DNA from: an uncultured bacterium
GTDB lineage: Bacteria; Patescibacteriota; Minisyncoccia; Phycocordibacterales; CAIZLB01
Direction: 5' to 3'
DNA length: 64,000 nt
Assembly: GCA_903933735.1 (NCBI GenBank)
Contig: CAIZLB010000006.1
Span: forward strand, 3,750-67,749
Shown: one piece after another, positions 26,447-60,495 of the stretch
Numbering within the stretch: position 1 is the stretch's first letter
Layout of the letters: each line of letters begins with the position of its first letter
Program-made: the position numbers and the translations under genes
Notes under the pieces: generated by a model
What the model was told of the DNA's origin: nothing
Database searches by the model: none
The model's input: the letters and a program-made list of their open reading frames with translations, nothing else

Positions 26447-26497
26447 CATTGTCCCGAAAAGGGATCGGCCGGTGCACACGGCCTGATGCTACCAATG
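26447..26497 (+). repeat. left copy of 50-nt structured direct repeat (candidate att core or RNA element)
   Basis: CATTGTCCCGAAAAGGGATCGGCCGGTGCACACGGCCTGATGCTACCAATG; about 85% identical to 60446-60495 with compensatory changes in the central hairpin. Confidence 0.6.
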
Positions 26498-26767
26498 CCC
26501 TACATCCTAAAAAAACAAAGGGTCGTGACCTATCGGAAAAACGGCATACCGGCCGTGATCCTTGAAGGGAAATGGCTCACAAAACTATATCGCATTAACG
26601 TCGGTGACGTGATCGACATAGACCATAAATGGCCACACGAGATACGAATCACAAAGAACAAAAAGCTCAGCAAGTTAAGACAAACAAAACTGAAGGAGCG
26701 AGAAGAACTTCGTAAGCAATATCTCCAAAAGCTAAAAAATAACCATGACTACACAAGCAAAAACTAA
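26486..26767 (+). CDS. putative AbrB/MazE-like (swapped-hairpin) DNA-binding protein
   Basis: VVTYRKNGIPAVILEGKWLTKLYRINVGDVIDID resembles the looped-hinge helix fold; start ATGCTACCAATG lies inside the repeat. Confidence 0.35.
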   Translation: MLPMPYILKKQRVVTYRKNGIPAVILEGKWLTKLYRINVGDVIDIDHKWPHEIRITKNKKLSKLRQTKLKEREELRKQYLQKLKNNHDYTSKN

Positions 26768-27047
26768 AGCATTAGCTCGAGAAGCGCTAAGTCTAGTGAA
26801 AGAGAAGGCTCCGGCAATAGTCGATGAGCAGATTCTTGCGCACATGCTTGATGAGGTCGCTGAATTTACAAGCGACATCATGGGCAAGCTTACTAACTTA
26901 GACGCTGACAACGAAACTAACATCACGATGGCTCACGGAATCATCTATGACGGACTTCTCAATGAAGTCGTCACTCAAATTAGAGACACAATGCATGCCG
27001 CAGCCGGAAAGAGGTTAGACAAGTTCGAAACATTATCAAAAAAATAA
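26745..27047 (+). CDS. hypothetical protein
   Basis: 100-aa ORF in phage-like early region. Confidence 0.35.
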   Translation: MTTQAKTKALAREALSLVKEKAPAIVDEQILAHMLDEVAEFTSDIMGKLTNLDADNETNITMAHGIIYDGLLNEVVTQIRDTMHAAAGKRLDKFETLSKK

Positions 27048-27163
27048 AATCCCCCCGTGAGGAGAGACTGAACCCTAGATAAGTACATTCTCCCAAAAAT
27101 TTCACGGAAAGTCAAAAGAGAGATCGCCGCCGTAACCGGCGCTTTCTCTCTTCAACCAAAACT

Positions 27164-27703
27164 ATGGAAGAAAATAAAACACTTAATTTGATACCAAACA
27201 GCACACAGCTCCCAAACCTCATCCTCGATCTGGTGGTCCCTCTAGTACCAGAGTCTGAAGCTAGATGCCTGATTTACATATGCCGAAGAACGTTCGGATT
27301 CCACAAGGGTTCCGATCGCATCAGCTTCTCTCAATTTACAGATGGAATAAAAGATCGCAGAGGCAACGTGCTTGATTACGGAACTGGTCTATCAAAGCAG
27401 GCGGTAGCAGTCGGCTTGAAGAACCTCGCACAGGCAGAAGCCATTCGGGTGATGAAAAGCAAGAAGGGAAACGTGTACGAAATAAACCTGCATATGGATG
27501 TGGATAAGGTAGTCAATTTAATAGACCAGTCTAGAAAGTTGACCAAAATCGGTCTAAAAAATAGACAACGCTTGTCCTACAAAGTAGACACACAAAACCT
27601 AGGAAATAAAGAGAAACAAAGTATTAGGGATCCTGTTGAAAACTTATCCACAGGAATAAGAGAACTTGCTCGAAAGATGACCATTAACAAATTTAGAAAT
27701 TAA
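27164..27703 (+). CDS. putative winged-helix replication or replisome-organiser-like protein
   Basis: Weak resemblance to phage replisome-organiser N-terminal HTH; position upstream of RusA. Confidence 0.3.
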   Translation: MEENKTLNLIPNSTQLPNLILDLVVPLVPESEARCLIYICRRTFGFHKGSDRISFSQFTDGIKDRRGNVLDYGTGLSKQAVAVGLKNLAQAEAIRVMKSKKGNVYEINLHMDVDKVVNLIDQSRKLTKIGLKNRQRLSYKVDTQNLGNKEKQSIRDPVENLSTGIRELARKMTINKFRN

Positions 27704-27708
27704 AACCA

Positions 27709-28113
27709 ATGAAAAAAACAATCCAATTCACAATAAAGGGAAACCCGGAAGACCTTGAAGGTAATCCGGTCCCATACGTTCGTGTGGTAGGCCGAGCGTT
27801 GTGGTTACCACACGCAAAGAAATACCACGCATGGAAAGAATATGTCCGCAGTATCTTCTACCGAAACAATCCAGAATTCTCCTCTGAAAAGGAGCAGCCT
27901 CTCACAACAAAAATATCAGAGCGTGCACGGATGTCGATAACAATCTTCTGGGTAAACGGAGTGCATGCCGATCCTGACAATGTGTTCAAGGGTCTTGCAG
28001 ATGCTTTGTTTGCCAATGACAAGTTTCTCGATGGAGCATTCGAATCTCACTATGCGTCCGATGGTAAAGGGCGGGTCGAAGTGGAGATAACGCTCAATCA
28101 TCGAAGCCAATGA
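27709..28113 (+). CDS. rusA: RusA-family Holliday junction resolvase
   Basis: About 130 aa; HADPDNVFKGLADALFANDKFLDG matches RusA catalytic D-x-D-N region. Confidence 0.6.
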   Translation: MKKTIQFTIKGNPEDLEGNPVPYVRVVGRALWLPHAKKYHAWKEYVRSIFYRNNPEFSSEKEQPLTTKISERARMSITIFWVNGVHADPDNVFKGLADALFANDKFLDGAFESHYASDGKGRVEVEITLNHRSQ

Positions 28114-29012
28114 AGTACTTCAGTTTATTCTCCGGCATCGGAGGGTTCGAATTAGGAATAAAACAAGCATATGAAATCCTGCGCACTAAGAACAAGAAAC
28201 AGAGGGTTCAAGGAATTGGAAATAAGAAAAGATCATCTAGCGAATTCCATCACCTCGGTCCAGACGGATTCACTTGTGTTGGTTACTCGGAGATCGACAA
28301 ATATGCAATCCAAATCTATGAAAAACACTTTGACCACAAAAACTTCGGAGACATCAGAAAAATCAAACCTAGGTCTATACCTGACTTTGACCTTCTTATC
28401 GGAGGCTTTCCTTGCCAGTCTTTCTCAGTCGCAGGGAAAAGAAAAGGATTTAAAGATACACGCGGCACCCTCTTTTTTGAGATTGCTCGCATCATCGCTT
28501 CCAAGAAGCCAAAGCTACTTCTCCTTGAGAACGTTAAAGGGCTTCTCTCTCACGATGTCGGGCGCACGTTCGGAACTATCCTCTCCTCATTGGATGAACT
28601 GGGGTATGACGTGCAGTGGGAAGTGCTTAACAGTAAGAACTTCGGGGTCCCTCAAAACAGAGAGCGAGTGTTTATTGTCGGACATCTTAGAAAAGACTCC
28701 AGACCGGAAATATTTTCTCTCAGAAAGGATGACACAGGGAATAGTAAACAGCATGTTTCGAAGTCGCAAACCACTCGAGGTGTCCGGAATATGTCAGACC
28801 TTAAAAGTAGGTGGCGACACTCCATGCGTATTAGAAAACTCACACCAAAAGAATGCGAAAGGCTCCAAGGATTCCCAGATGGATGGACTGAAGGAGTAAG
28901 CGACACGCAGAGGTATAAGACCCTCGGAAACGCAGTGACGGTAAATGTAGTCGCCGAGATTGTAAAACGAATCATCGGCATTGAAAAGAATAATTATGTA
29001 CAACGCAAATAA
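28110..29012 (+). CDS. DNA (cytosine-5)-methyltransferase
   Basis: Motif I FSLFSGIGGFELG, motif IV GGFPCQSFS, ENV motif LLLENVKGL. Confidence 0.88.
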   Translation: MKYFSLFSGIGGFELGIKQAYEILRTKNKKQRVQGIGNKKRSSSEFHHLGPDGFTCVGYSEIDKYAIQIYEKHFDHKNFGDIRKIKPRSIPDFDLLIGGFPCQSFSVAGKRKGFKDTRGTLFFEIARIIASKKPKLLLLENVKGLLSHDVGRTFGTILSSLDELGYDVQWEVLNSKNFGVPQNRERVFIVGHLRKDSRPEIFSLRKDDTGNSKQHVSKSQTTRGVRNMSDLKSRWRHSMRIRKLTPKECERLQGFPDGWTEGVSDTQRYKTLGNAVTVNVVAEIVKRIIGIEKNNYVQRK

Positions 29013-29379
29013 TCCAAGACACAAATTAACTCCCGACCAAATAAAGCATCTTCAGCGTTGTTTTGAGGATGAAGGGTGGAGGATTAATTGGCTCTCGGTT
29101 TATTTTGGAATCTACAAAAAGTCGGTCCTCTTTCACATCAGGTACAACGGCTGGGTCCGACGGATGAAAGTCCAACGGCACATGCCCAAGGAAATAGCGG
29201 ACATATACCGCGAACGCAGAAAGCAAAAGTACGAAATAAAACTTAAAGGAACGTACGAATTTATCAAGATGTCGGCTGAGCAGCACAGGATGGAAGGCTG
29301 CGGGCATGTCCGATGGGTTAAACGCTGCAGTCTATGCGGCCAGATACTCGGATCGGATGCGACAGACCATAAACATTAA
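28981..29379 (+). CDS. hypothetical protein (Cys/His-containing)
   Basis: 132-aa ORF; C-terminal CGHVRWVKRCSLCGQ possible zinc-binding motif. Confidence 0.35.
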   Translation: MKRIIMYNANNPRHKLTPDQIKHLQRCFEDEGWRINWLSVYFGIYKKSVLFHIRYNGWVRRMKVQRHMPKEIADIYRERRKQKYEIKLKGTYEFIKMSAEQHRMEGCGHVRWVKRCSLCGQILGSDATDHKH

Positions 29380-29384
29380 TCATC

Positions 29385-29795
29385 ATGAAAAATATAACCA
29401 ACAAAACAAAAAAAGAATTGCATCCTAATCCACTCAACCTATCGGCAAGATTCCTTGCCGCACGTCCTGATCTTGTCGGTCCTTGGATTATCGGAGCACA
29501 TAGCCTTCTTCCAATATTTAAAACTGAGCATAAGGGCGCACTCGTTGCATACCTCGAAACTGTCCAAAGGGAATTTTTTGCTGCACTCGAACATTTTTGG
29601 AAAAAGAAGCATGCCGATCAGAAGATTACATACACATTCGGAACTATCTGCCGAAACTCCAAGGGCGAGGAGCGACTCGTGATCGGTATAACTCCAACAG
29701 AAAAAGGAAAGCCAACCTACGAGTACATGGATGACAACGGCAAAGTCGGCGCATGCAACGAGTCGAGCATGATGAGCTGGATGGAAAAAAGATAA
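29385..29795 (+). CDS. hypothetical protein
   Basis: 136-aa ORF. Confidence 0.35.
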   Translation: MKNITNKTKKELHPNPLNLSARFLAARPDLVGPWIIGAHSLLPIFKTEHKGALVAYLETVQREFFAALEHFWKKKHADQKITYTFGTICRNSKGEERLVIGITPTEKGKPTYEYMDDNGKVGACNESSMMSWMEKR

Positions 29796-29805
29796 CAACA
29801 ATCAT

Positions 29806-31134
29806 ATGCAAATCACTGACGTAAAAAAATACGAAAAAAACGCAAAGGAGCATCCGGGCTTCCAACTCGAGAAAATCGCAAGCTCGATAAAAGCATTCGG
29901 ATGCAAGCAACCAATCATCCTCGATAAGGATAACGTTATCGTTGTTGGTCATGGTCGCTTTATTGCAATGACTGAACTGCTCGGCTACACGCTCATGGAA
30001 GCAAAAGCATTCACGAGAAAGGGTGAGCCTGTTATCCCCTACATGCTCATTGATGATTTGAGCGATGAAGAAATAAAAGCATATCGAATCGCCGACAACC
30101 AACTCAATGCTCTCACAGGACAAGACATGATGCTGATCACAGAGGAACTAAAGTTGCTCGACGAGTCAGGATTCGATATCACTCTCACCGGTTTTGACCG
30201 TGACATCATTCTTGAAGATGACGAGCAAGACGATGTGGTCCCTGAAGAACCGAAAGTGCCAAAAACAAAACTAGGAGATGTGTATCAGCTCGGTCCCCAC
30301 ACTATCATTTGCGGAGACTCAACAGACAAAGATGCATACGAAAAGACGGTCCAGCAAAGAAAAGCGGACTGCATATTTACCGATCCTCCATACAACGTGA
30401 ACTATTCAGGCCGTGGAAAAAATACGAGCGAAGGAATCATGAACGATGACATGGACTCCGAAGCGTTCGATTCATTTCTTGAGAAAGCATTCGGATGTCT
30501 TAGTGATGTGGCAAAGACTGGTGCAGGTTGGTATGTCTTTCATTCAACATCAACACAGGCGCAATTCGAAAAGGCACTCAAGAAGTTTGGAATGGCAATC
30601 CGGAATCAACTCATTTGGAATAAGCCAACCGCATCGATGGGATGGGGTGACTACCGATGGAAGCATGAGCCATTCTTCTACGCATCAAAAGACGGAACCA
30701 AAACAGTCTTCTACGGTGACCGCACACATTCAACAATTGTGGACTTTCATGACAGCGAACAGAAACTCATCAACTGGGCAAAGCGACAAAAGAAATTGGA
30801 AACCGAAGGCAAACTCACGATATGGACTATGAAGCGAGACAAAGTAAATGAGTACAAACATCCAACACAGAAACCTGTGGAGCTTATTACTTACGCACTC
30901 CTCAATAGCTCGAAAGCCGAGGACTTGGTGGTCGATCCATTTCTCGGAAGCGGAAGCACACTCATCGCATGCCAGAAGACAGACCGTGTTTGTGCAGGAA
31001 TAGAGCTCGACCCGAAGTTCGTAGACGTGATTGTTCAGCGATGGGTGGATTTCACCGGCATCGAACAGGTGGTCCGAAATGGGCAGCCCGAAAACTGGCC
31101 GAAAACCATCTATGAGCATGAACACCAAGAATAA
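29806..31134 (+). CDS. ParB-like nuclease N-terminal domain fused to amino-type DNA methyltransferase (N6A/N4C)
   Basis: ParB-N motif KQPIILDKDNVIVVGHGRF; MTase catalytic motif FTDPPY; AdoMet motif DPFLGSGST. Confidence 0.8.
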   Translation: MQITDVKKYEKNAKEHPGFQLEKIASSIKAFGCKQPIILDKDNVIVVGHGRFIAMTELLGYTLMEAKAFTRKGEPVIPYMLIDDLSDEEIKAYRIADNQLNALTGQDMMLITEELKLLDESGFDITLTGFDRDIILEDDEQDDVVPEEPKVPKTKLGDVYQLGPHTIICGDSTDKDAYEKTVQQRKADCIFTDPPYNVNYSGRGKNTSEGIMNDDMDSEAFDSFLEKAFGCLSDVAKTGAGWYVFHSTSTQAQFEKALKKFGMAIRNQLIWNKPTASMGWGDYRWKHEPFFYASKDGTKTVFYGDRTHSTIVDFHDSEQKLINWAKRQKKLETEGKLTIWTMKRDKVNEYKHPTQKPVELITYALLNSSKAEDLVVDPFLGSGSTLIACQKTDRVCAGIELDPKFVDVIVQRWVDFTGIEQVVRNGQPENWPKTIYEHEHQE

Positions 31135-31720
31135 TGAAAACAATCAGCCGAAAGTGCTCCTTTTGGAAGCTCCTAAGTACGTTCCAAGGAGTGAGGAAGC
31201 TTCACGCCCCGTAGAGGCAAATAAGGGCATTTCCGAGGCTCCTTCCGACCCCTCGGATGCCCGTAAATACGGGCAAAATACGGGTAATTTAGATAGAGAC
31301 CCTGTCACAGGGCAGTTCCTCCCAGGGAACTCAGGTAAGCCATTGGGAGCCAGACATTTCAGCACAATGTTCAGAGATTACGTCCGTGAGGCTGGTGCCA
31401 TTACCAAGGATGGGCAAAAGGTTGGATTCGACAAGTTGATAGTGAAAAAGATGGTGAGTATGGCAGTGGACGGAAACCTTAAGGCGGCAGGAATGGTACT
31501 CGATCGTGTCGATGGAAAAGTCCCTCAAACATTCGAGGTAAACAAGACTGAGAGAATAGGAATCCTTGTAATGACCCAACAGGAAATCGAAGACCATGAA
31601 TCAATATTCAAACGAAAATATGCAGAACCAAATACCAAAGACAATAATACCTCCAGTGACGGAGCACGGAATGAAGACACTCCGAGAGTCACGGAAGGAA
31701 GTGCGTACGAAACACACTAA
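31112..31720 (+). CDS. putative terminase small subunit
   Basis: Position immediately upstream of large terminase; basic N-terminus; start chosen at ATG 31112 to avoid overlap with upstream gene. Confidence 0.35.
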   Translation: MSMNTKNNENNQPKVLLLEAPKYVPRSEEASRPVEANKGISEAPSDPSDARKYGQNTGNLDRDPVTGQFLPGNSGKPLGARHFSTMFRDYVREAGAITKDGQKVGFDKLIVKKMVSMAVDGNLKAAGMVLDRVDGKVPQTFEVNKTERIGILVMTQQEIEDHESIFKRKYAEPNTKDNNTSSDGARNEDTPRVTEGSAYETH

Positions 31721-33299: not shown

Positions 33300-33353
33300 A
33301 GAGAAAGTAATACACCAAAAAATGCGTTTTATTACACGCATACTGAAAACACT

Positions 33354-35369: not shown

Positions 35370-35390
35370 TAATTAAACTAAATCAAATTT

Positions 35391-36498: not shown

Positions 36499-36662
36499 AG
36501 AATTTATCAAGAAAAGATAAAGAAATTATAAAGATAAAACCACTGGTAAGCCGGTGGTTTTTCTTGTTCAAAAGTAATGCACCATTTTTTGCTTTCTGAT
36601 GCCATCAAACTAATAAGCATAGAGGGGCCAACCTCTTATTAATAAAAAGGTTAATTGCGCTA

Positions 36663-49218: not shown

Positions 49219-49220
49219 CT

Positions 49221-49397: not shown

Positions 49398-49445
49398 ATT
49401 CTCTGTTCAAAACACTAAAAAAAGTGTAGAATTATAGAGTAATTT

Positions 49446-52403: not shown

Positions 52404-52404
52404 A

Positions 52405-53424
52405 TTATTTTTTTACAGTTAGTAGGAACAAATGCTCCTTAGTTATAATTTTCGACCCATCTTGATTAATTGCGCGGTATCGTTTGTGTTCTTTTGTGTA
52501 TTCCTTAACTTCACCGCGAGTTGAAAGAATTTTTTTGAGCACAGGAATCGGTATTATTCCTTCGTCGTTGTAACTCAATAAAATATATTTTGCTTTTGCT
52601 TTTGTTACTAAATCTAGAAGCGCGTCAGCAGCCTTTCGAGAAATTGAATAATCCGATTTTTGATCCTCATAAGGCCTCATTCCCGCGTTTCCATATATCT
52701 CAGGAATTTTCCTAAACCAACCTTCCGCCACCAATTCTAGAAAAAAATAATTTGATGCAAATTGCCTAGCGTTATATGGGGGATCTAGGTATAGAATATC
52801 TACTTTGTGCATCCCAACGAGATCATTTGCATCGGCTCGAAAGGCCCTGTTTTCTTTTTTGTTATCAAACACTTCTCCATGTTCTAAAGTGATATTTTTT
52901 AAAGCCCGTCTGTCCCAGCTTTTCAAAAATGCAGCGTAGGTACCTGTTACATTTGCAACAAGACTGATTGCGTTTATGAGACTTGCAATAAGATAATAAT
53001 ATTCTGTTTCGGAAATTAATTTACTATTCTTCCAGTTCTCGATATTTTCTCTAATCACATCAACCTTTTTAGCATTTTCAACTGAAAGATACTGACGTTT
53101 GTTTCCGTTAAATGGTGAGTAATTTTTTGTAATGAATCCAGCCTTACCCTTAAGTTTATTTAGATGATCAATAATATCATCCGACAATCCTAACTTTTTA
53201 AATTTAGGGATTTTAGCCGTTTCAATATTTGTTCGAGCCAGCGAGTATGCGAACTCTAAAAAATCGTTCGAATAAACTGTATAGCCAAGTTTTTTAAAAT
53301 GTTGACCAACTGCAGTTGTCCCACTAAATATATCGAAAAAAATTGCCCCTTTTTTTACGGGTAAAGTTGTAACGACATCCTCAATGTAATCAAGCAGTTT
53401 GGTTTTGCAACCGTAATATCTCAT
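52405..53424 (-). CDS. D12-class (Dam-like) N6-adenine DNA methyltransferase
   Basis: N-terminal MRYYGCKTKLL (RYxGxK), FFDIFSGT, catalytic DPPY. Confidence 0.85.
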   Translation of the reverse strand: MRYYGCKTKLLDYIEDVVTTLPVKKGAIFFDIFSGTTAVGQHFKKLGYTVYSNDFLEFAYSLARTNIETAKIPKFKKLGLSDDIIDHLNKLKGKAGFITKNYSPFNGNKRQYLSVENAKKVDVIRENIENWKNSKLISETEYYYLIASLINAISLVANVTGTYAAFLKSWDRRALKNITLEHGEVFDNKKENRAFRADANDLVGMHKVDILYLDPPYNARQFASNYFFLELVAEGWFRKIPEIYGNAGMRPYEDQKSDYSISRKAADALLDLVTKAKAKYILLSYNDEGIIPIPVLKKILSTRGEVKEYTKEHKRYRAINQDGSKIITKEHLFLLTVKK

Positions 53425-53540
53425 GTCTCCTTATTTTAGCTTACTTTTTGCAAAATACATAGTCATTTGCATACCAAGCGCTCTTTATAAGGGTACTATT
53501 TTATGGTAATATTTTTTTATCTTGAAAACCCCAAAAACAC

Positions 53541-55817
53541 ATGCCTATTACCAAATTAAAAGACATAACAAATATTGATGCTTTCGACACCTTTCAATGG
53601 GGTGGGAGTGATCTAAAAAAATACAACTTAATTTATGGGTGGAATGGATGTGGTAAAACAACCATGTCGCGCGTGTTAAGTTTTGTTGAGAAGAAGGAAA
53701 TTGATATGCCGGAGTTTTCTTCAATGCAATTTCAGGTTCAGACTAATACCGGCGTAACCAAGGAATCAGACCTGCTCACTAGTAATATAAGTATTAAAGT
53801 TTTTAATGAGGATTTTATCCGAGAAAATCTTGAGTTCCACGAGTCAAAAGCAAAGAAAATTCTCATTGTCGGAAAAGATAATATAGATGCACAAGCTGAA
53901 ATAACTTCTCTAGAGGCGAAAGTTACCACGGCAAGAGAAGAGCATGATCGGCTAGAAGTAGATAGAGGAAAAATTAGCTCTATAGAAAATATTTTTACTG
54001 AAGCTGCCCGTGAAGTAATCAAGCAATTTACTAATACCCCCCTCGGTAGTGGAACATACTATGGTCGAAGCTACAACCGTACAAAAATAGAACCTTTTGT
54101 TACTGACGGCAAGATCACTCCTGAGAATCTAGACTCATTGATTATAGAAAAGGTAGAAGATATAGATAGCAAGAGGGACATAATTAAAAATCAAAAACAA
54201 AAAATTGGTTCTGAATTAAAAGGGGTTAATGATTTTTCTGTATTATTTGAAAATGCGAATAATCTCTTGGATACATTTGTAGATATCGAAATAATCGAAG
54301 GGCTCGACTCTGACAAAGAGCTCAGAGATTGGACTGAACAAGGATATCACATACATAAAAACCGAGATCTCGAATCGTGTCAATTTTGTAAAAAAACTCT
54401 CGATAAAGGATTCCTAGAAAACCTTGGTAAATTTTTTACTGAGGAGCTCGAAAAAGCAAAAAAGGGAATTGATGACATTATTACAAAAATAGACGTAGCA
54501 GAAAACAAAGCTGAGGCAGTATTTATTGAACCAAGTCGACTATTTCCTGATTTGGCAAACGAATATCTTGCGACAAAATCAAGCGTTGAAGATAAAGGCA
54601 GAGAGCTACGTGGTTCAATTACAGCACTGATCGTTGCCCTCAATGAAAAGCGTGAGAATCTACATGATCGAAAAAAAACTATTTCAAAAATTCCATATCC
54701 TGAGAATGTTATTAGAGAGTTCGGTGCACTTATTGAAAAGCTTAATGCTATAGTCAATAAACATGATGAGAGGATGGATAAAATAGATGAAGCGGCAAAA
54801 GCAATTGAGATCCATACCATTGCGTCGGTTTTGAAGTCAAAAGAGTATTTCAAAAAGAAAAAAGACCTCGCCGATCTTGATGCAAAGCTTGGTCCATTAA
54901 AAACAGAAATATACACACTAAATGGTGAAATAAAAAAGAAACGTGGCGGTATCCTAAATGCTTCTATCGCAATCGATGCAATAAATGACGTTCTCAAAGA
55001 TTTCTTCGGTGAATCACAAATATATCTAGAGCTTACAGATCCAAATGCTCCAGAGGTGGGTTATATTGTGAAGCGCCGTGGTAAGAATGCAAAGCACCTA
55101 AGCGAGGGTGAGAAAAGTGTCATAGCATTGATTTATTTTCTTGCAAAACTCGAAGAAGACGGCTTTAAAAAGGAGAGCGGAATAATTGTGGTAGATGATC
55201 CTGTAGACAGTCAAGATGAAATATTTTTGTTCCGCACTTTCGGCCTCATAAAAAGACAGCTTATAAAAGCCGAGCAATTGATAGTACTTACACACAACTT
55301 CGCCTTTTTTAATCTGGTCCGAGATTGGATGAACGACACCGACGATGCCGAACTTTATCTTATGACCTGCAATCGCACAGGGACGACACATGAAGCAAAA
55401 ATTGAGCCCCTGCCAGATATTATCCGCAAATACAAAACCGAGTATCAATTCCTATTTTTTCAACTCTATAACTTCAATAAAAATGGTGCAGGAATAGATG
55501 CTCCACTTATACCAAATGTCGCAAGAAAAGCACTTGAATATTTCGCAGGTTTTAAGTGGTCGTGTGGTACAGATCGAGCTTTTGCTCAAATGGTACACGA
55601 TAAATATATCACTGATCCTAACCTCAAAAACAAAGGAGTGGCAGACTTCATCGTAAAGTTTCTGCACGAATACTCACACGGACTAGACTTCACTCGGCCG
55701 ATCACCGCTGCAACACTTGAAGCAAAAGATGTGGCAAAAAACGTCATAGAATTCATACATATGTCCGATGACGATCATTACAAAAAATTAAAGGTTCTAT
55801 GTGACCCTTCGGCCTAA
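53541..55817 (+). CDS. AAA_13-like ABC-type ATPase with long coiled-coil insert
   Basis: N-terminal YNLIYGWNGCGKTT Walker A; signature LSEGEKSVIAL; Walker B IIVVDDPVDSQDE; H-loop LTHN; about 450-aa coiled-coil between. Confidence 0.7.
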   Translation: MPITKLKDITNIDAFDTFQWGGSDLKKYNLIYGWNGCGKTTMSRVLSFVEKKEIDMPEFSSMQFQVQTNTGVTKESDLLTSNISIKVFNEDFIRENLEFHESKAKKILIVGKDNIDAQAEITSLEAKVTTAREEHDRLEVDRGKISSIENIFTEAAREVIKQFTNTPLGSGTYYGRSYNRTKIEPFVTDGKITPENLDSLIIEKVEDIDSKRDIIKNQKQKIGSELKGVNDFSVLFENANNLLDTFVDIEIIEGLDSDKELRDWTEQGYHIHKNRDLESCQFCKKTLDKGFLENLGKFFTEELEKAKKGIDDIITKIDVAENKAEAVFIEPSRLFPDLANEYLATKSSVEDKGRELRGSITALIVALNEKRENLHDRKKTISKIPYPENVIREFGALIEKLNAIVNKHDERMDKIDEAAKAIEIHTIASVLKSKEYFKKKKDLADLDAKLGPLKTEIYTLNGEIKKKRGGILNASIAIDAINDVLKDFFGESQIYLELTDPNAPEVGYIVKRRGKNAKHLSEGEKSVIALIYFLAKLEEDGFKKESGIIVVDDPVDSQDEIFLFRTFGLIKRQLIKAEQLIVLTHNFAFFNLVRDWMNDTDDAELYLMTCNRTGTTHEAKIEPLPDIIRKYKTEYQFLFFQLYNFNKNGAGIDAPLIPNVARKALEYFAGFKWSCGTDRAFAQMVHDKYITDPNLKNKGVADFIVKFLHEYSHGLDFTRPITAATLEAKDVAKNVIEFIHMSDDDHYKKLKVLCDPSA

Positions 55818-57306
55818 CCATATGACGCTATCAAAAACTGATTACATACTTTATAGAGAATGTCCAAAGAATGCTTGGATGAAAATTCACAAGCCGGATA
55901 TTTACTATGCAACTGAACTTTCCGAATTCGAAAAGCATATCATTGAAACCGGTAACGAGGTTGAGCTTGTGGCCCGTCAGCTCTTTCCAAGCGGTGTGCT
56001 TATAGAAGGCAGAGATGAGAAAGCTCGACTTGATACTCTCGATCTTGTCGCTAAGAAGGGTCAAACTATTTTCCAGCCCATCTTCGTTAAAGATGGATTT
56101 CTCGCAGCGGTCGATGTGCTCAAATACGATCCAGAAAATGACGGTTATCAAATATATGAGATCAAGGCTACGAATGAAGTGGATGAGAAAGTTCATCTTT
56201 ATGACCTCGCATTTCAAGTAGCTTTACTACACAAGTGCGGGGTAAGAGTGACAGGTATCAACCTTCTACATCTCAATAAGGAGTACGTGAGGAATGGGGA
56301 ACTAGATATCATAAAGCTTTTTTCAATAGACGAAGTGAGCGAGGTAATAGCAGACATGATCTCTGTAGTGTGGGATGAAATGAATATCGCTTTAAAATAT
56401 CTGTCTTCTGAGAATGAGCCCAATGGTCCTTGCTGTTGCGTTTACAAAGGAAGAAGTGGTCATTGCTCTACATTCAAACATAACAACCCTCATATTCCAG
56501 AGTATTCGGTACACGACTTAAACCGAATAGGTAGCAGCAAAAAGAAACTGATGGAACTTATCGATAGTAACGTCTTTCATATTCATGAGGCGGATGGAAG
56601 GATTGTTTTTAGTGAGTCACAACAAAACCAAATTGATGCTCATGTAAATGATAGAGTGCTGATAAAGAAAGATATGATCGCAGAGGAATTTAGTAAGTTG
56701 GAGTATCCGCTTTATTTTTTAGATTACGAAACATTTCCATCTGCTGTACCATTGTTCGACGGCTACTCTTCGTATAATCAAATCCCATTTCAATATTCAC
56801 TTCAAGTGGTTCAAACGCCGAATGCAGAGCCACAGAGTTTTGATTTTATTTATACAGAATCAGATGATCCCTGCCCGGCATTAGCAAAATCTCTACAATC
56901 TCATATTGGTCCTAAAGGGAGTGTAATTGTTTGGTATAAACCTTTTGAAAAATCAAGAAATACAGAAATGGGAATAAGACTTCCAGAGTATAAGATCTTC
57001 TTTGAAGGAATAAATGAGAGAATCTTTGATCTCATGGAAATATTTTCAAAGCAATACTACGTTCACAAGGAGTTCAAGGGTAGCAGCTCGATTAAAAAAG
57101 TTCTCCCCGTTCTTGTACCTGAGCTTTCATATAAAGAGCTTTTGATCAAAGAGGGTGGCACAGCATCTCAGGCATGGAAAAAAATAGTAGACGGAAAATA
57201 TTCAAAAGATGAAGCGACTGAGCTCATCAATGCCCTTAAGATTTACTGTAATCTAGACACTTATGCTATGTATGCAATCTTCAAGCGTTTGGTGGATATA
57301 ATATAA
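55801..57306 (+). CDS. Cas4/RecB-like PD-(D/E)XK nuclease with Cys4 Fe-S cluster and C-terminal extension domain
   Basis: YRECPKNAWMK N-terminal Cys; ...YEIKAT E-x-K motif; CCCVYKGRSGHC cluster; 17-nt overlap with upstream ATPase gene. Confidence 0.6.
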   Translation: MTLRPNHMTLSKTDYILYRECPKNAWMKIHKPDIYYATELSEFEKHIIETGNEVELVARQLFPSGVLIEGRDEKARLDTLDLVAKKGQTIFQPIFVKDGFLAAVDVLKYDPENDGYQIYEIKATNEVDEKVHLYDLAFQVALLHKCGVRVTGINLLHLNKEYVRNGELDIIKLFSIDEVSEVIADMISVVWDEMNIALKYLSSENEPNGPCCCVYKGRSGHCSTFKHNNPHIPEYSVHDLNRIGSSKKKLMELIDSNVFHIHEADGRIVFSESQQNQIDAHVNDRVLIKKDMIAEEFSKLEYPLYFLDYETFPSAVPLFDGYSSYNQIPFQYSLQVVQTPNAEPQSFDFIYTESDDPCPALAKSLQSHIGPKGSVIVWYKPFEKSRNTEMGIRLPEYKIFFEGINERIFDLMEIFSKQYYVHKEFKGSSSIKKVLPVLVPELSYKELLIKEGGTASQAWKKIVDGKYSKDEATELINALKIYCNLDTYAMYAIFKRLVDII

Positions 57307-57321
57307 GTAATTACTAAATTT

Positions 57322-57477
57322 ATGTTTGAAGACAAAGACCCAGAAGAAGTGAAAGAGATTACAGAAATTGCTGAAAATCAGGGAGTGGATATTGAGAGTG
57401 CTGAAAAAATAAAAGAAATCATGGATGAGGAAGGTCTTGATGAGGATGAGGCTGCTGAAATAGCGGAAGTAGTCTAA
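57322..57477 (+). CDS. small hyper-acidic protein (51 aa, not in ORF track)
   Basis: MFEDKDPEEVKEITEIAENQGVDIESAEKIKEIMDEEGLDEDEAAEIAEVV; about 40% D/E. Confidence 0.3.
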   Translation: MFEDKDPEEVKEITEIAENQGVDIESAEKIKEIMDEEGLDEDEAAEIAEVV

Positions 57478-57497
57478 AAGTGATAAAGTATTAAAAC

Positions 57498-58367
57498 ATG
57501 AATCATTCAGAGAAAAAATCCCTCGAATTTGTACACAAACACCGACGTAAGTTTTATGCCGTCGGTATTTTGATACTCTTTTTTGTAATGAGTATTACTA
57601 GCGAGGCTGTCTACGATTCCTTCAAGCCCGATACAGTGGCATCCGAATATTCAGAAAGCGAGGATACTTCCTCATGCAATGTTTTAGGAATCAATCTCCA
57701 TGGCGACCTTTATACTTATGTACCAGAAAGCAATGACGATGAGTTAATGAGCAACAAAGATGTTGTGGGAAGCGAAGAAATAATGGGCTCGCTTGAAACA
57801 GCCGAAAATGACGAGAATATCAAAGCTGTTATCGTGGAAGTGGATTCCCTGGGAGGTTATCCTGTCGCGGGCGAAGAAGTGGCCAATGCAATAAAAGCAT
57901 CTACCAAGCCTGTCGTGGCCTTTATCCGCCAGAGCGGAACGTCGGCAGCATATTGGGCAATCACCACGGCCGATCAGATATTCGCATCAAAGAATTCTGA
58001 TGTTGGCAGCATTGGAGTCACAACATCCTATCTCGAAAATGTTTCCAAAAATGAAAAAGAGGGCCTTAAATACGTTCAACTCAGTGCAGGAAAATACAAG
58101 GATGCCGGAAGTCCGGACAAGTCACTGACTGATGAAGAAAAAGCACTCATCATCCGAGATCTGAAAATCGTCCATGAAAACTTTATTCAGGATGTCTCAA
58201 CCAATAGAAATATTCCGATTGAGAAAATTCGAGCAATCGCTGACGGTTCTTCAATCCTCGGAGCGCGCGCGAAAGAACTCGGCTTAATCGATAGTATCGG
58301 TGGATACGCTGAAGTGAAGAACTACATCGAAGAAAAGATCGGAGAGAAACCTGAGGTTTGCTGGTAG
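57498..58367 (+). CDS. sppA: signal peptide peptidase SppA (S49 family)
   Basis: TM anchor; ClpP/crotonase-fold motifs VDSLGGYPVAGEEV...SGTSAAYWAI...DVGSIGV. Confidence 0.8.
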   Translation: MNHSEKKSLEFVHKHRRKFYAVGILILFFVMSITSEAVYDSFKPDTVASEYSESEDTSSCNVLGINLHGDLYTYVPESNDDELMSNKDVVGSEEIMGSLETAENDENIKAVIVEVDSLGGYPVAGEEVANAIKASTKPVVAFIRQSGTSAAYWAITTADQIFASKNSDVGSIGVTTSYLENVSKNEKEGLKYVQLSAGKYKDAGSPDKSLTDEEKALIIRDLKIVHENFIQDVSTNRNIPIEKIRAIADGSSILGARAKELGLIDSIGGYAEVKNYIEEKIGEKPEVCW

Positions 58368-58410
58368 AGTCCCTCTAGACTTAAAAATCTATTCTCGGTA
58401 TCTTTGTACT

Positions 58411-58722
58411 ATGGAAGAAAATGACATGGATGCAGTCCGTAAGGCTGCCGAACACATTCAAATACCTTTCAACCGGTATGAAATATTCAACCGGCTTTCT
58501 CAACTTTCCCAGCCCAAGGCTAAAATGAAACAGGCTCTGAAAGAGAGGATGAAATTACTTGCCGCCGCCTATGTATCACTGGCAACTTTTATAGATGATG
58601 ATGACGTGGAGTTTATCTTTGAAAACAAAAACAGCCAGAGAGCAAAGGATGTAGCTGCAAAGGTTTGTGAAGATTTAGATATAGCACAAGAAGAAATGAG
58701 GAATTTCAAGCTAATGGACTAG
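58411..58722 (+). CDS. hypothetical protein
   Basis: 103-aa ORF. Confidence 0.4.
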   Translation: MEENDMDAVRKAAEHIQIPFNRYEIFNRLSQLSQPKAKMKQALKERMKLLAAAYVSLATFIDDDDVEFIFENKNSQRAKDVAAKVCEDLDIAQEEMRNFKLMD

Positions 58723-58743
58723 TCAATTTTTAATTAATACTTA

Positions 58744-58802
58744 TTAAAGTTTTAATAAAGAAAAAGTAAAAACTCCCTAGATTCACTCAAAAGTGGTATA
58801 AT
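58744..58802 (+). promoter_or_regulatory. promoter with extended -10 TGGTATAAT; near-leaderless transcript for yerC-like gene; contains 25-nt repeat
   Basis: TGGTATAAT at 58794-58802, ATG at 58812; repeat TTAAAGTTTTAATAAAGAAAAAGTA. Confidence 0.4.
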
Positions 58803-58811
58803 GAGATTAAT

Positions 58812-59135
58812 ATGGACGATCAAGAAAAAAATAACATTTGGAAAGAGATAGAACAAAAATCACCTGACTTAATCCAGGCGTTCTTGTCATTGAAAAACGA
58901 GGATGAACTGAAAGCATTCTTCCGCGACCTTATGAGTGAGCGTGACTTGCGAGAATTCGCAATGCGATGGGAGGTAGCAAAAATGCTTGATTCGGGTATG
59001 TCATTCACTCAGATCCAAGAAAAGTGGGCTGGTGATGAGATGGTTTCTCCAAACACGATCGCAAAAATTAATCGATGGTTGAAAGAGGGTTGTGGAGGAT
59101 ACAAAATGTTGATTGATCGTATGAAGAATAATTAA
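58812..59135 (+). CDS. YerC/YecD-family TrpR-like DNA-binding protein
   Basis: About 100 aa, pattern ...LSLKNEDELKAFFRDLMSERDLREFAMRWEVAKML... typical of YerC/YecD. Confidence 0.65.
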   Translation: MDDQEKNNIWKEIEQKSPDLIQAFLSLKNEDELKAFFRDLMSERDLREFAMRWEVAKMLDSGMSFTQIQEKWAGDEMVSPNTIAKINRWLKEGCGGYKMLIDRMKNN

Positions 59136-59198
59136 AGAAAAGTTAAAGTTTTTATAAAGAAAAAAGTAGCAAGTTGAATACATAAAAGATAAAATAAA

Positions 59199-59223
59199 AG
59201 CGGGCTAGTGCCCGTTCTTTTTC
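59199..59223 (+). terminator. intrinsic terminator
   Basis: agcgggc-tagt-gcccgtt hairpin followed by CTTTTT. Confidence 0.55.
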
Positions 59224-59249
59224 ATAAACAAAAAAAACAAGGAGGTCTC

Positions 59250-60251
59250 ATGAATTCAACAGAATCAGATCGTCATGGGACCTACGTGGTTACCTATGAC
59301 GTGGCAAGTCGTCTTCAGGCGTTTCGTCCGAAGACTATCACAATCCCGCGTCCGAATGACCAATTGTTCGAACGCTTTCACATGAGCCTGTTTCAAAAGA
59401 TACAGCAGGCTCTTCCAGGCATCACGATCGATACGATCGAGATGAGTGAACTCAGGCGAAAAATCTGGGAGCAAGTTGATTCCCGCATAACTGACCTAGC
59501 TCAGCAAGCGGTCCTCAGTACATGCCCAGAGATTGCCGACTCGAATCCGAAAAGCGAAGGCTTACTCCTCAATATCAACCGTCTGTTCAATGTGGATGGT
59601 CAGTTGATAGGACACGGTCCTCGCCCAGGCTTCAAGCCACTCGCAAAGCAGTATGATGATTTGGCAAAGAAGTTCGCAGGCCGTTCCGTCGTCCTCATCG
59701 AAGATGGAGCATTCAGCGGCGGCACACTTCGGTCCGTGCTTCATGAGCTCAATAGTCGAGGCATAACAGTCACGGCAATTGTCATCGGCTTCTGTTGCAC
59801 GAGGGCGAAGTTTGTCCTCGGTCAGTTCTTCAGGGGTGAGCTCGTCATAGTGCATCCAATCGAGAGTCTTCTTGATTGGATTCCTGACCACGATCTTATT
59901 CCGTTCATCCCCAACTGCGGACGTGTCCTAGGCGAAGCATCTGGTGATAGCTTCATGCCGGTCCGAAGCGCAGAAGGCTTCAGTTCTGCCTACCCCTACA
60001 TATTGCCGTTCGGCAAGATCGAGGAGTGGGCAAGCTTGCCGATCGAGGGAGCTAGAGAATTGTCGAGGCTTTGCCTGGATACCAGTATTGAGCTGTTTGG
60101 CCGTGTAGGGCAAAAAATGACGATAGGGGAGCTTCTAAGGGCTAACCCAAGGGTTTCATTACCTATCGAAATTGGAGCCAAATCTGGGCAAATTGATCAA
60201 AACATGGAGATCAGGGTGTTCTTGGAGAAAGTAAGGAAAAGACTAGGATAG
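59250..60251 (+). CDS. phosphoribosyltransferase (type I PRTase fold) domain protein, higher-GC islet
   Basis: PRPP-binding motif VVLIEDGAFSGGTL; strong RBS AAGGAGG 8 nt upstream of ATG 59250. Confidence 0.6.
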   Translation: MNSTESDRHGTYVVTYDVASRLQAFRPKTITIPRPNDQLFERFHMSLFQKIQQALPGITIDTIEMSELRRKIWEQVDSRITDLAQQAVLSTCPEIADSNPKSEGLLLNINRLFNVDGQLIGHGPRPGFKPLAKQYDDLAKKFAGRSVVLIEDGAFSGGTLRSVLHELNSRGITVTAIVIGFCCTRAKFVLGQFFRGELVIVHPIESLLDWIPDHDLIPFIPNCGRVLGEASGDSFMPVRSAEGFSSAYPYILPFGKIEEWASLPIEGARELSRLCLDTSIELFGRVGQKMTIGELLRANPRVSLPIEIGAKSGQIDQNMEIRVFLEKVRKRLG

Positions 60252-60274
60252 CCTGTGCTCTTTATTTAAAACTC

Positions 60275-60314
60275 AGTCGCATCGCCCCATTGGGTGGTGC
60301 GACTTTCTTTTTTT
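60275..60314 (+). terminator. intrinsic terminator after PRTase gene
   Basis: gtcgca...tgcgac hairpin followed by T-run of about 12. Confidence 0.7.
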
Positions 60315-60445
60315 TAGTTTCTTAAATACCCTTATTTTAATTGACTTATTTGTTCATATGCTCCCTAACTCTTTAGACCATACATTAAGGGTATTGACAA
60401 TAGACAGCCACTATAATAGATTATAGTGACAACCGAATATGAATC

Positions 60446-60495
60446 CATTGTCCCGAAAGGGATCTGGGCCGGCAACGGTCCCGATGCTACCAATG
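60446..60495 (+). repeat. right copy of 50-nt structured direct repeat
   Basis: CATTGTCCCGAAAGGGATCTGGGCCGGCAACGGTCCCGATGCTACCAATG; preceded by TTGACA promoter-like motif at about 60400. Confidence 0.6.

What the first reader, a model, noticed from the sequence alone, without database searches (positions are those of the whole stretch)
26447..60495. Imperfect 50-nt direct repeats with compensatory hairpin changes bracket the island, each beginning a reading frame with ATGCTACCAATG
The copies at 26447-26497 and 60446-60495 share CATTGTCCCGAAA(A)GGGATC...GATGCTACCAATG. The central hairpin differs (GGCCG-GTGCACA-CGGCC versus GGGCCG-GCAA-CGGTCC) while preserving pairing, and the outer CATTG/CAATG and GTCCC-GAAA-GGGAT stems are kept. 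The left copy contains the start of an intact 93-aa AbrB-like ORF (MLPMPYIL...). The right copy starts a 9-codon remnant (MLPMDFVPS*) and sits just downstream of a TTGACA/-10-like promoter and 130 nt upstream of the tyrosine recombinase. This fits attL/attR created by integration into the 5' end of a gene. It also fits a conserved structured RNA or leader that is transcribed at both ends of the island. The recombinase lying outside the repeat-bounded interval is atypical and unexplained.
Basis: seen in the sequence. Interest (0 to 1): 0.6.

Follow-up and report, generated by a model that had tools for sequence, protein, structure and literature searches.

The report
Paired regulatory RNA junctions inside prophage
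The two 50-nt repeats are not the ends of the island but two copies of a folded RNA element carried inside a 36-kb prophage of a Paceibacteria-like bacterium, one in front of the integrase and one at the start of the first early gene, apparently wired together by a covarying RNA-RNA pairing.

Summary
The window holds exactly two copies (26447-26497, 60446-60495) of a 50-nt three-way junction: P1 CAUUG/CAAUG, P2 UCCC-GAAA-GGGA, a variable P3 and a 9-nt single strand, J3/1.

The attL/attR reading is refuted. Metagenome contigs with identical ychF and pheA genes 18 nt apart give the empty site. The insert is 25931-61950 (36,020 bp), crossed over at the ychF stop codon. The empty site holds no motif copy and no recombinase.

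About 90 related phage and prophage loci carry the junction in two contexts.
- R-type: promoter, junction, central hairpins, intrinsic terminator, integrase ATG.
- L-type: the junction holds the start codon of a conserved small protein (motif ILEGKWL).

In R-type leaders J3/1 is exactly complementary to the terminator loop, and the pair covaries through more than 12 sequence variants. The leader is predicted to be bistable (terminator versus long-range helix). Within one phage the L and R copies share the same J3/1.

My best reading is an integrase attenuator whose terminator loop probably also acts as an antisense regulator of the early gene, like P4 CI or P1 c4. No Rfam family matches.

The parts
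25931..61950 (+). Whole integrated prophage (36,020 bp): early and replication genes, structural and lysis genes to 49218, defence and methyltransferase cargo 49446-57306, and a lysogeny module (TrpR-like gene, phosphoribosyltransferase, R RNA, integrase).
   Evidence: Empty-site contigs L153, L156 and L157 join window 25930 directly to 61951. The identity profile against Paceibacteria JTS-AC154 jumps from about 60% to 98-100% at 25931 and drops at 61950. GC is 0.45 against 0.33 in the flanks.
25915..25930 (+). attL core GGAGTTTAGGATATAA, the last codons and stop codon of ychF. The stop is TAG in the empty site and TAA in the lysogen.
26039..26055 (+). Conserved box AAAAAGGTCGAATTTAT upstream of the early operon; candidate promoter or operator.
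   Evidence: The same box lies upstream of the early operon or the L-type junction in L018, L062, L067, L074 and L054. Its function was not tested.
26078..26440 (+). 120-aa phage gene that precedes the L copy. It is optional: some relatives lack it.
   Evidence: It is contiguous with phage DNA in viral contig L001. Homologues occur in L054 and L074. No family match.
26447..26497 (+). L copy of the three-way-junction RNA. P1 26447-26451/26493-26497, P2 GUCCC-GAAAA-GGGAU, P3 26467-26483.
26484..26492 (+). J3/1 single strand of the L copy (UGAUGCUAC), immediately 5' of the start codon. It can pair 9 bp (one G-U) with the R terminator loop.
26495..26767 (+). First conserved early ORF (90 aa, ILEGKWL motif). 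Its AUG lies in the 3' strand of P1.
   Evidence: at least 299 homologues, all unnamed. The fold is unconfirmed.
60394..60422 (+). Sigma-70-like promoter of the R RNA (TTGACA, 17 nt, TAGATT). It sits just after the strong terminator of the upstream gene (60275-60304).
   Evidence: TTGAC(A) boxes are conserved at the same place in related leaders.
60446..60495 (+). R copy of the three-way-junction RNA; P3 is 60466-60481.
60482..60490 (+). J3/1 single strand of the R copy (CGAUGCUAC).
60495..60601 (+). Central domain of the R RNA. GGACUUU (60495-60501) can pair with AAAGUCC (60603-60609). It also contains the hairpins 60529-60550 and 60551-60564.
60602..60637 (+). Intrinsic terminator of the R RNA. 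Stem AAAAGUCCACU/AGUGGGCUUUU with a 12-nt loop 60613-60624. The loop contains GUAGCAUCG (60616-60624), the exact complement of J3/1. The U-tract ends 16 nt before the integrase ATG.
60653..61570 (+). Phage tyrosine integrase (305 aa).
   Evidence: Pfam PF00589, E 6.5e-26. Absent from the empty site. At least 573 homologues.
61935..61950 (+). attR core AGAGTTTAAGATTTAG, preceded by a phage-borne imitation of the ychF 3' end (reads DGGLIEFKI*). The inverted repeat AGAAGATGGTG (61917-61927) matches CACCATCTTCT (25934-25944).

Best explanation
The two repeats are paralogous copies of an RNA three-way junction that belongs to a 36-kb temperate phage. The phage is integrated at the stop codon of ychF in a Paceibacteria-like (CPR) bacterium.

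Shown:
- Both copies lie inside the prophage.
- The junction (P1, P2, P3) is kept by covariation on the + strand in about 90 related phage loci.
- The R copy is the 5' domain of an RNA of about 205 nt. That RNA runs from its own promoter to an intrinsic terminator ending 16 nt before the integrase ATG, so integrase transcription has to read through this terminator.
- The single strand J3/1 of the junction is exactly complementary to the terminator loop. The pair covaries through more than 12 different sequences.
- The terminator's 5' half can instead pair with J3/1 plus the GGACUUU that follows P1. The two folds have nearly equal predicted energy.
- The L copy holds the start codon of the first conserved early gene in its P1 helix.
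- L and R copies of one phage carry the same J3/1, although their P3 hairpins belong to separate, old L and R lineages.

Inferred:
- The R leader is a bistable attenuator that gates integrase expression.
- The terminated R RNA presents its loop (YUNR-like UUGA/CUAG followed by the antisense stretch) to J3/1 strands. These are the J3/1 of nascent R leaders, where pairing would force termination, and the J3/1 next to the start codon of the early gene, where pairing would block or modulate translation.
- This would couple integrase and early-gene expression and could define immunity types, as the P4 CI and P1/P7 c4 RNAs do.
For: Prophage limits and empty site.

Junction family and covariation. 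90% of cells are paired, 8 pairs show double changes, and 0 of 500 shuffles reach the observed values. G-C, G-U and A-U series occur in P3.

J3/1-loop pairing:
- Cognate pairs give 8.5 contiguous Watson-Crick bp against 4.5 for non-cognate pairs.
- Every R-type metagenome leader whose J3/1 was parsed correctly and whose terminator was present (33 leaders) has a complement of 7-9 nt. The variants are GAUGCUAA/G/C, GAUGCAAA/C, GAUGCGAA/C, GAUGGAAA, GAAACGAC, GAUACGAC and AACGCUAA.
- The pseudoknot helix is 100% paired, with 4 of 8 pairs changed on both sides.

Structure: the RNAalifold consensus is junction, two hairpins and terminator. The whole leader folds with z = -6.65. The two conformations differ by 2.5 kcal/mol, and homologues flip between them. 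Promoter and upstream terminator.

L/R match:
- Six of six same-contig pairs agree, where a random pair would agree with probability 0.26.
- Each copy's P3 is closest to the same class in other phages (distance 1-5) and not to its partner (distance 7-8).
- In a phage that lacks the L junction, the exact 10-mer GGAUGCGACA of its R J3/1 recurs after a hairpin at the start of the early ORF; the chance expectation is my own estimate of roughly 0.005.
- Tandem prophages in one contig differ in J3/1.

The only complement of the L J3/1 in the 64-kb window is the R terminator loop.
Against: - There is no expression data. The promoter, terminator, RNA ends and stability are all predictions.
- The trans step rests on few and mostly small differences. 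Five of the six pairs vary only at one J3/1 position. Short-tract gene conversion between the identical 13-nt blocks could also keep L and R alike.
- In a terminated R RNA the loop could be occupied by its own J3/1.
- The strong sequence conservation of P1 and P2 in both copies suggests an additional common factor, possibly a protein, that I could not identify.
- One relative (L076) has the R architecture but no second J3/1 copy within 5 kb after the integrase. Other R-type subgroups show no L junction.
- A TrpR-like DNA-binding protein is always encoded nearby and could be the real repressor.
Confidence: 0.6

Rival explanations
1. Cis-only leader plus a shared protein. The R leader is an integrase attenuator in which J3/1-loop pairing is purely intramolecular. 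The L copy is an independent translational operator. Both junctions are bound by one phage or host protein, and there is no RNA-RNA contact in trans.
For: P1 and P2, including the GAAA loop and the GGGAUC sequence, are conserved in sequence in both classes, beyond what an antisense target needs. The cis architecture is much more widespread than the L copy. The bistable fold works without any trans partner.
Against: It does not explain why the J3/1 of L tracks the J3/1 and loop of R within each phage while P3 does not. It also does not explain why a phage without the L junction still places the exact R J3/1 10-mer at the early ORF start. No candidate RNA-binding protein was identified.
Confidence: 0.27
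2. attL/attR: the repeats are the recombination junctions of the island, made by integration into the 5' end of a gene.
For: Two direct, imperfect copies about 34 kb apart lie near a tyrosine recombinase.
Against: The empty site joins 25930 to 61951 and has no motif copy and no recombinase. Phage DNA continues on the outer side of both copies. Free or tandem phage contigs carry both copies. The real att core is GAGTTTA(G/A)GAT at the ychF stop codon.
Confidence: 0.01
3. A small-molecule riboswitch. The junction is an aptamer, and ligand binding stabilises P1. That would give termination before the integrase and sequestration of the early-gene start codon.
For: The leader has a compact three-way junction with conserved junction nucleotides, placed before an expression platform with a terminator and an alternative pairing.
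Against: J3/1, which would line a binding pocket, varies freely between phages and is constrained only by complementarity to the loop. No Rfam aptamer matches. The regulated genes, an integrase and a small early protein, have no metabolic logic.
Confidence: 0.05
4. DNA-level sites: operators for a repressor, arm-type integrase binding sites, or folded single-stranded DNA.
For: The copies are palindromic, lie near both prophage ends, and sit next to an integrase and a TrpR-like DNA-binding protein.
Against: Helices are maintained through G-U intermediates that pair only on the + strand. The minus strands fold no better than shuffled sequence. The long-range partner lies in a terminator loop 125 nt away and covaries. 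The orientation is always that of a transcript running from promoter to terminator.
Confidence: 0.04
5. A guide or bridge-type RNA that programmes the neighbouring recombinase's choice of att site.
For: A structured RNA of about 200 nt with its own promoter lies directly upstream of a recombinase gene, as with IS110 bridge RNAs (from my own knowledge).
Against: Matches between the R RNA and attL or attR on either strand are no better than chance. The variable segment pairs with the RNA's own terminator loop instead. Phages with different J3/1 sequences use the same ychF site (window, L075, L076). The recombinase is an ordinary PF00589 tyrosine integrase with an attP that imitates the ychF end.
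Confidence: 0.03

Closest known systems
Phage P4 CI RNA immunity (seqB pairing with seqA and seqC; described in PMC4825925, citing Ghisotti 1992, Sabbattini 1995, Briani 2000)
   Same: The RNA is encoded in the untranslated leader of the operon it controls. One short antisense segment is complementary to two target sites, one upstream in the same leader and one further away. The outcome is premature transcription termination. The specificity segments differ between related phages.
   Different: There is no sequence or structure homology. The targets here are displayed in a conserved three-way junction. The antisense segment is the loop of the terminator itself. The controlled gene next to it is the integrase. 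Processing, stability and immunity are untested. The host is a CPR bacterium.
P1/P7 c4 antisense RNA (Rfam RF01695; Citron and Schuster 1990, as cited in PMC2864571)
   Same: A loop-displayed antisense sequence is complementary to sites upstream and downstream. The downstream site overlaps a translation start. Covarying loop-target pairs define heteroimmune types.
   Different: Rfam's c4 model does not match. Here there is one loop instead of two. The second target is about 2 kb away across attP in the circular phage and 34 kb away in the prophage, so it would have to be reached in trans.
Terminator/antiterminator attenuators and riboswitch expression platforms
   Same: A promoter-proximal structured domain, an intrinsic terminator directly before the regulated ORF, and a mutually exclusive alternative helix of similar energy.
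   Different: The strand that switches is not conserved in sequence but covaries with the terminator loop. No ligand, leader peptide or tRNA logic is evident. The short ORF after P1 is not conserved.
Integrase-associated RNA motifs of Weinberg et al. 2010 (STAXI, Lacto-int; PMC2864571)
   Same: Conserved structured motifs found next to phage or Xer-type integrase genes, with unknown function.
   Different: No Rfam family, including those curated from that study, matches at gathering score in the window or in 11 related loci, or at E up to 10 around either copy in the window. The architecture is also different, a junction plus a terminator-loop pairing.

Membership tests
Prophage attL/attR direct repeats | The copies lie exactly at the junctions between inserted and flanking DNA. 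| tested here: not met
   The junctions are at 25930|25931 and 61950|61951. The copies lie 516 nt and 1455 nt inside them.
Prophage attL/attR direct repeats | The empty site carries one copy (attB). | tested here: not met
   Empty-site contigs L153, L156 and L157 have no copy, with the covariance model run with filters off at E up to 10.
Integrative elements that exploit host Xer at dif (IMEX) | The recombinase is host-encoded and stays behind at the empty site. | tested here: not met
   The recombinase is absent from the empty site and lies inside the insert.
Any Rfam 15 family (hammerhead, twister, c4 RF01695, STAXI, riboswitches and others) | A covariance-model match at gathering score (window and related loci), or at E up to 10 on the two motif regions of the window. 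| tested here: not met
   No relevant hit in the window, around either copy, or in 11 related loci. Only sub-threshold microRNA chance hits appeared.
Transcription attenuator (terminator/antiterminator leader) | A promoter upstream, an intrinsic terminator immediately 5' of the regulated ORF, and no room for another promoter. | tested here: met
   Promoter TTGACA-17-TAGATT at 60394-60422. The terminator's U-tract ends at 60637 and the ATG is at 60653. The arrangement is the same in relatives.
Transcription attenuator (terminator/antiterminator leader) | A mutually exclusive alternative pairing that involves the terminator and is supported by covariation. | tested here: met
   J3/1-loop covariation. 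The two folds differ by 2.5 kcal/mol and the MFE flips among homologues.
Transcription attenuator (terminator/antiterminator leader) | Measured, regulated read-through and an identified effector. | not testable with these tools
   Needs transcript mapping or in vitro transcription.
P4 CI / P1 c4-type antisense immunity RNA | One antisense segment complementary to two or more target sites, with all partners covarying within each phage. | tested here: met
   Loop = complement of J3/1(R) = complement of J3/1(L) in the window and in 5 further same-contig pairs, plus the L022/L029 10-mer. The variation among these pairs is small.
P4 CI / P1 c4-type antisense immunity RNA | A stable small RNA accumulates in lysogens and confers superinfection immunity. 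| not testable with these tools
   No expression or phage-infection data are available.
P4 CI / P1 c4-type antisense immunity RNA | Sequence or structure homology to the known RNAs. | tested here: not met
   No Rfam c4 hit. The element is therefore an analogue at most, not a family member.
SpoVT/AbrB (or SymE/MazE) swapped-hairpin proteins (the left ORF) | A match to a family HMM or to the solved fold. | tested here: inconclusive
   No Pfam, PHROG or PDB-sequence hit. The AlphaFold model has pLDDT 66. AbrB (1yfb) and SpoVT (2w1t) appear only at E 4.7 and 9.5. The motif resemblance (PAVILEGKWL...GD.VDI) is a recollection from memory only.
Tyrosine recombinase / phage integrase | A PF00589 catalytic domain. 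| tested here: met
   E 6.5e-26, 91.6 bits against a cut-off of 27.1.

The most novel reading that the evidence does not exclude
The R RNA of about 205 nt is the immunity factor of a large group of CPR (Patescibacteria) temperate phages. It would be an RNA repressor whose terminator loop recognises an 8-10-nt 'address' displayed on a conserved three-way junction. The address occurs both in the RNA's own nascent leader, where pairing shuts off the integrase by forced termination, and at the start codon of the first early gene. The many loop/address variants would be heteroimmunity types that allow tandem polylysogeny at ychF.
Probability: 0.3. Interest if true: 0.75.

Novelty: new variant of a known kind. 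Interest (0 to 1): 0.6.

Why it matters
Phages of the Candidate Phyla Radiation are almost unstudied experimentally, and nothing is known about how they control lysogeny.

This element gives a concrete and widespread RNA handle: about 90 loci here, and hundreds of homologues of the associated integrase and early protein. It has an unusually clean computational signature, namely a long-range pairing that covaries through a dozen sequence types and a matching second site in the same genome.

It makes a specific hypothesis directly testable with compensatory mutations in vitro or in a surrogate host. The hypothesis is RNA-gated integrase expression coupled to early-gene control, possibly RNA-based immunity.

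It also adds an uncatalogued family to the short list of phage riboregulators of the P4 CI and P1 c4 type. In addition, the work fixes the prophage's exact boundaries and its attB at the ychF stop codon.

Tried and rejected
(1) I first concatenated loci L009 and L014 of Paceibacteria JTS-AC154 as if they were adjacent, and inferred a 4.7-kb 'mini-element' carrying both copies. The locus list showed they are 32 kb apart, so that inference was withdrawn. The identity breakpoints remained valid and were later confirmed by the true empty site.

(2) A hammerhead or other small ribozyme, suggested by UGAUGAG/GAAA-like strings. The order of elements does not fit, and Rfam finds nothing.

(3) A dif/Xer IMEX model, with the recombinase outside the repeats. 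Rejected, because the recombinase is phage-borne.

(4) A guide or bridge RNA for the recombinase. The R RNA shows no complementarity to the att sites.

(5) Leader-peptide attenuation through the short ORF that starts in P1. The ORF is not conserved.

(6) The first loose pattern scan of genomes returned mostly chance hits, as expected for 20 specified bases with a wide gap. Only the JTS-AC154 sites were real.

(8) Matching contig lengths between integrase and ILEGKWL homologue lists, to find more L/R pairs, gave no match.

(9) Structure prediction of the ILEGKWL protein was of too low confidence to classify it.

(10) L076, an integrase followed directly by att and early genes, has the R architecture but no second J3/1 copy.

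Full report
**1. The observation**

- Left, 26447-26497: CATTG TCCC GAAAA GGGA TC GGCCG GTGCACA CGGCC TGATGCTAC CAATG.
- Right, 60446-60495: CATTG TCCC GAAA GGGA TC(T) GGGCCG GCAA CGGTCC CGATGCTAC CAATG.

The 19-mer of the 5' block has a single exact site against 0.01 expected. The pair is direct-repeat family D8. A covariance model built later finds exactly these two sites in the window, at 70.4 and 58.8 bits. On the + strand both fold into two hairpins enclosed by the CAUUG/CAAUG helix. The minus strands fold no better than shuffled sequence.

**2. Where the island really ends**

The window is low-GC DNA (about 0.33) with a block of GC about 0.45 from roughly 26.0 to 49.2 kb. The genes of 26078-49218 are those of a small tailed phage: replication O-like protein, RusA, methylases, large terminase, portal, capsid, tail and amidase. 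After them come methyltransferases with a PDC-S06 defence candidate, an S49 peptidase, a TrpR-like protein, a phosphoribosyltransferase and a PF00589 tyrosine integrase.

A related genome, Ca. Paceibacteria JTS-AC154, has a ychF gene only about 60% identical at the DNA level. It becomes 98-100% identical exactly after the ychF stop codon (window 25931). On the right it is 77-100% identical (mostly above 85%) up to 61950 and unrelated beyond.

The two ends carry a short direct repeat. GGAGTTTAGGATATAA is the end of ychF, and AGAGTTTAAGATTTAG lies at the right end. The right-hand copy sits in a phage-borne imitation of the ychF C-terminus.

The decisive result is the empty site. Contigs L153, L156 and L157 encode the identical YchF and the identical prephenate dehydratase 18 nt apart. 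Their flanks are 99.9-100% identical to the window.
- attB: ...GTGGAGTTTAGGAT TTAG|TGTGTT...
- attL: ...GTGGAGTTTAGGAT ATAA|CAACACC...
- attR: ...ATAGAGTTTAAGAT TTAG|TGTGTT...

The crossover therefore lies in GAT(A/T)TA(A/G) at the ychF stop codon, and the insert is 25931-61950 (36,020 bp).

The empty-site contigs contain no copy of the 50-nt motif, even with the filters off and E up to 10. Lysogen end-contigs contain one copy each. Other prophages of the family also sit at ychF or carry its att core (L075, L076).

Hence the repeats are internal to the prophage, 516 nt and 1455 nt from its ends. The integrase is inside the element next to attR, as usual.

One error of mine should be recorded. 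I first treated two loci of JTS-AC154 as adjacent and inferred a mini-element. The locus table showed that they are 32 kb apart, and I withdrew that claim.

**3. The motif is a conserved RNA three-way junction with two contexts**

Pattern and protein-anchored searches brought in viral and metagenome loci.

- L-type copies sit immediately 5' of a small conserved protein with the motif ILEGKWL. It has at least 299 homologues, all unnamed, from Patescibacteria and Paceibacterota. The AUG in the 3' strand of P1 is the universal start codon. The upstream ATG inside GATGCTAC is lost in several relatives.
- R-type copies follow a TTGAC(A) promoter and lie 140-225 nt upstream of homologues of the integrase.

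On the model-based alignment of 22 distinct sequences, 90% of cells pair. Eight pairs show changes on both sides. P1 and P2 are 100% paired, for example CAUUG/CAAUG, CGUUG/CAACG and CAUCG/CGAUG. None of 500 shuffles reaches the observed values, and slid registers collapse to 24-45% paired.

P3 varies through G-C, G-U and A-U series. This argues for RNA on the + strand. No Rfam family matches the window, either copy, or 11 related loci.

**4. A long-range pairing that covaries**

In every R-type leader the single strand between P3 and P1 (J3/1) is the exact complement of the loop of the GC-rich hairpin with U-tract that ends just before the integrase ATG.

| Locus | J3/1 | Terminator loop |
|---|---|---|
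| window | CGAUGCUAC | GUAGCAUCG (60616-60624) |
| L027 | GAUGAGAG | CUCUCAUC |
| L039 | GAGACAA | UUGUCUC |
| L028 | GAGGCAAA | UUUGCCUC |
| L029, L031 | GGAUGCGAC | GUCGCAUCC |
| L041 | CGAGGCUAA | UUAGCCUCG |
| L034 | CUUGGCGG | CCGCCAAG |
| L035 | GUACGACC | GGUCGUAC |
| L040 | UCAGUGGUGC | GCACCACUGA |
| L037 | CCACGACCAAG | CUUGGUCGUGG |
| L076 | GCUCUAC | GUAGAGC |

Cognate J3/1-terminator pairs give on average 8.5 contiguous Watson-Crick pairs (94% of J3/1). Non-cognate pairs give 4.5.

Among the metagenome loci, every R-type leader whose J3/1 was parsed correctly and whose terminator was present (33 leaders) shows the arrangement (G)UCCACU - UUGA - [anti-J3/1] - (G)AGUGGAC - UUUUU. 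Eleven different J3/1 variants are each matched exactly.

On an alignment of 12 full R RNAs the RNAalifold consensus is junction, two central hairpins and terminator. Adding the J3/1-loop helix as a pseudoknot gives 100% paired cells, with 4 of 8 pairs changed on both sides.

**5. A bistable leader in front of the integrase**

The RNA has its own promoter, TTGACA-17-TAGATT at 60394-60422, placed after the strong terminator of the upstream gene. The U-tract of its terminator ends 16 nt before the integrase ATG. Integrase transcription therefore has to read through it.

The 5' half of the terminator (AAAGUCC ... loop) is complementary to J3/1 and also to the GGACUUU that follows P1. A long-range helix can thus replace junction-P1 plus terminator.

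The full leader folds far better than shuffles (-96 kcal/mol, z = -6.65), and its minimum-energy fold is this long-range form. For the RNA ending at the U-tract the two forms differ by only 2.5 kcal/mol (-87.2 versus -84.7). Among homologues the minimum-energy fold flips between them.

This is the anatomy of an attenuator. What sets the switch is not shown.

**6. L and R copies share the same 'address'**

The only complement of the left copy's J3/1 anywhere in the window is the R terminator loop.

In six contigs that hold both copies, the 8-nt J3/1 of L and R is identical. These are the window, Ga0209542_10001085, JACCDR011083238, Ga0364860_10170, JACCDG010315038 and Ga0265338_10000298. The variable last base is C/C, A/A, A/A, G/G, A/A and A/A. 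A random L and a random R would agree with probability 0.26.

At the same time each copy's P3 is closest to the same class in other phages (edit distance 1-5) and far from its own partner (7-8). R copies have GNRA-like loops and L copies have GUACA or GACG-type loops. L and R are therefore old, separately evolving paralogues whose J3/1 nevertheless changes in step.

In IMG/VR contig 3300025012_001675 the early protein lacks the junction. Yet the exact 10-mer GGAUGCGACA of that phage's R J3/1 recurs on the same strand, after a hairpin, at the start of the early ORF. By my own estimate the chance expectation is about 0.005.

Two tandem prophages in one contig carry different addresses...UAA and ...UAC.

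This pattern is what a trans-acting antisense loop with two targets would produce. It recalls two known systems:
- P4 CI RNA, in which seqB pairs with seqA and seqC and causes premature termination (PMC4825925).
- P1/P7 c4 RNA (RF01695; PMC2864571).

The loop's 5' UUGA or CUAG fits the YUNR U-turn of antisense RNAs (my own knowledge, not tested).

Several caveats apply.
- The differences among pairs are small.
- Gene conversion over the identical 13-nt block is not excluded.
- The terminated RNA could pair with itself.
- P1 and P2 are conserved beyond what a target needs, which hints at a protein partner.
- L076 shows no second site.

**7. Other readings**

- A guide RNA for the recombinase is not supported. 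The RNA shows no complementarity to the att sites, and phages with different addresses use the same ychF site.
- A metabolite riboswitch is unlikely, because the would-be pocket strand is free to vary.
- A leader peptide is excluded by the unconserved short ORF.
- DNA-level operators do not explain G-U series or the covarying loop.

The 'AbrB-like' label of the left ORF remains unverified. Literature searches found no description of this element.

**8. Verdict**

The repeat is real and the att interpretation is wrong. The structured-RNA alternative is right and considerably richer than proposed. It is an uncatalogued RNA family of CPR temperate phages that gates the integrase. It is very probably linked through a shared, covarying address to the first early gene. 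The kind of mechanism is known (attenuator, antisense immunity RNA), but this family and its architecture are new.

Noticed in passing
window 36573-36592, 41437-41456, 48283-48302: The 20-mer AGTAATGCACCATTTTTTGC (85-100% identical) occurs three times. Each copy lies in an intergenic gap of the phage structural region, just after a stop codon or terminator. It is a candidate late promoter or regulatory box.
   Followed up: partly
window 49446-57306: Cargo between the lysis and lysogeny modules of the prophage. It holds two type II methyltransferases on the minus strand (51594-53424), a 758-aa PDC-S06 / PrrC-like ATPase (53541-55817), and a Cas4-like 501-aa protein with a weak match. GC here is lower than in the phage core.
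   Followed up: partly
window 26039-26055; also L018, L062, L067, L074, L054: The conserved box AAAAAGGTCGAAWTTAT lies about 20-40 nt upstream of the early operon or of the L junction in several phages. No sigma-70 consensus was found there.
   Followed up: no
window 25934-25944 and 61917-61927; L075 9380-9460: The inverted repeat CACCATCTTCT / AGAAGATGGTG flanks the crossover and would form the core-type arms of attP. In L075 the host ychF end is followed by about 270 nt and then an attP-like junction, so a remnant or tandem integration is likely.
   Followed up: partly
window 58812-60251; L079-L081, L154-L155: A TrpR-family protein and a phosphoribosyltransferase-like protein always precede the R RNA and the integrase. 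The TrpR-like protein is a candidate phage repressor.
   Followed up: no
window 61610-61750: A small lysine- and glycine-rich ORF (KGG-like) lies between the integrase and attR. It is bracketed by the palindromes GCGCTTGGTATAATATCCAAG and ACCAAGCGCTTGGTATAC, each carrying a promoter-like -10.
   Followed up: no
window 13799-20635: A 2278-aa host ORF contains internal repeats about 3.16 kb apart (families D4, D5 and D9).
   Followed up: no
L063, L064, L070, L071 (viral contigs): In some relatives the ILEGKWL gene is preceded by a single hairpin (UUGCUUUUCCGAGAGAGCAA) instead of the three-way junction. This may be a reduced form of the L element.
   Followed up: no
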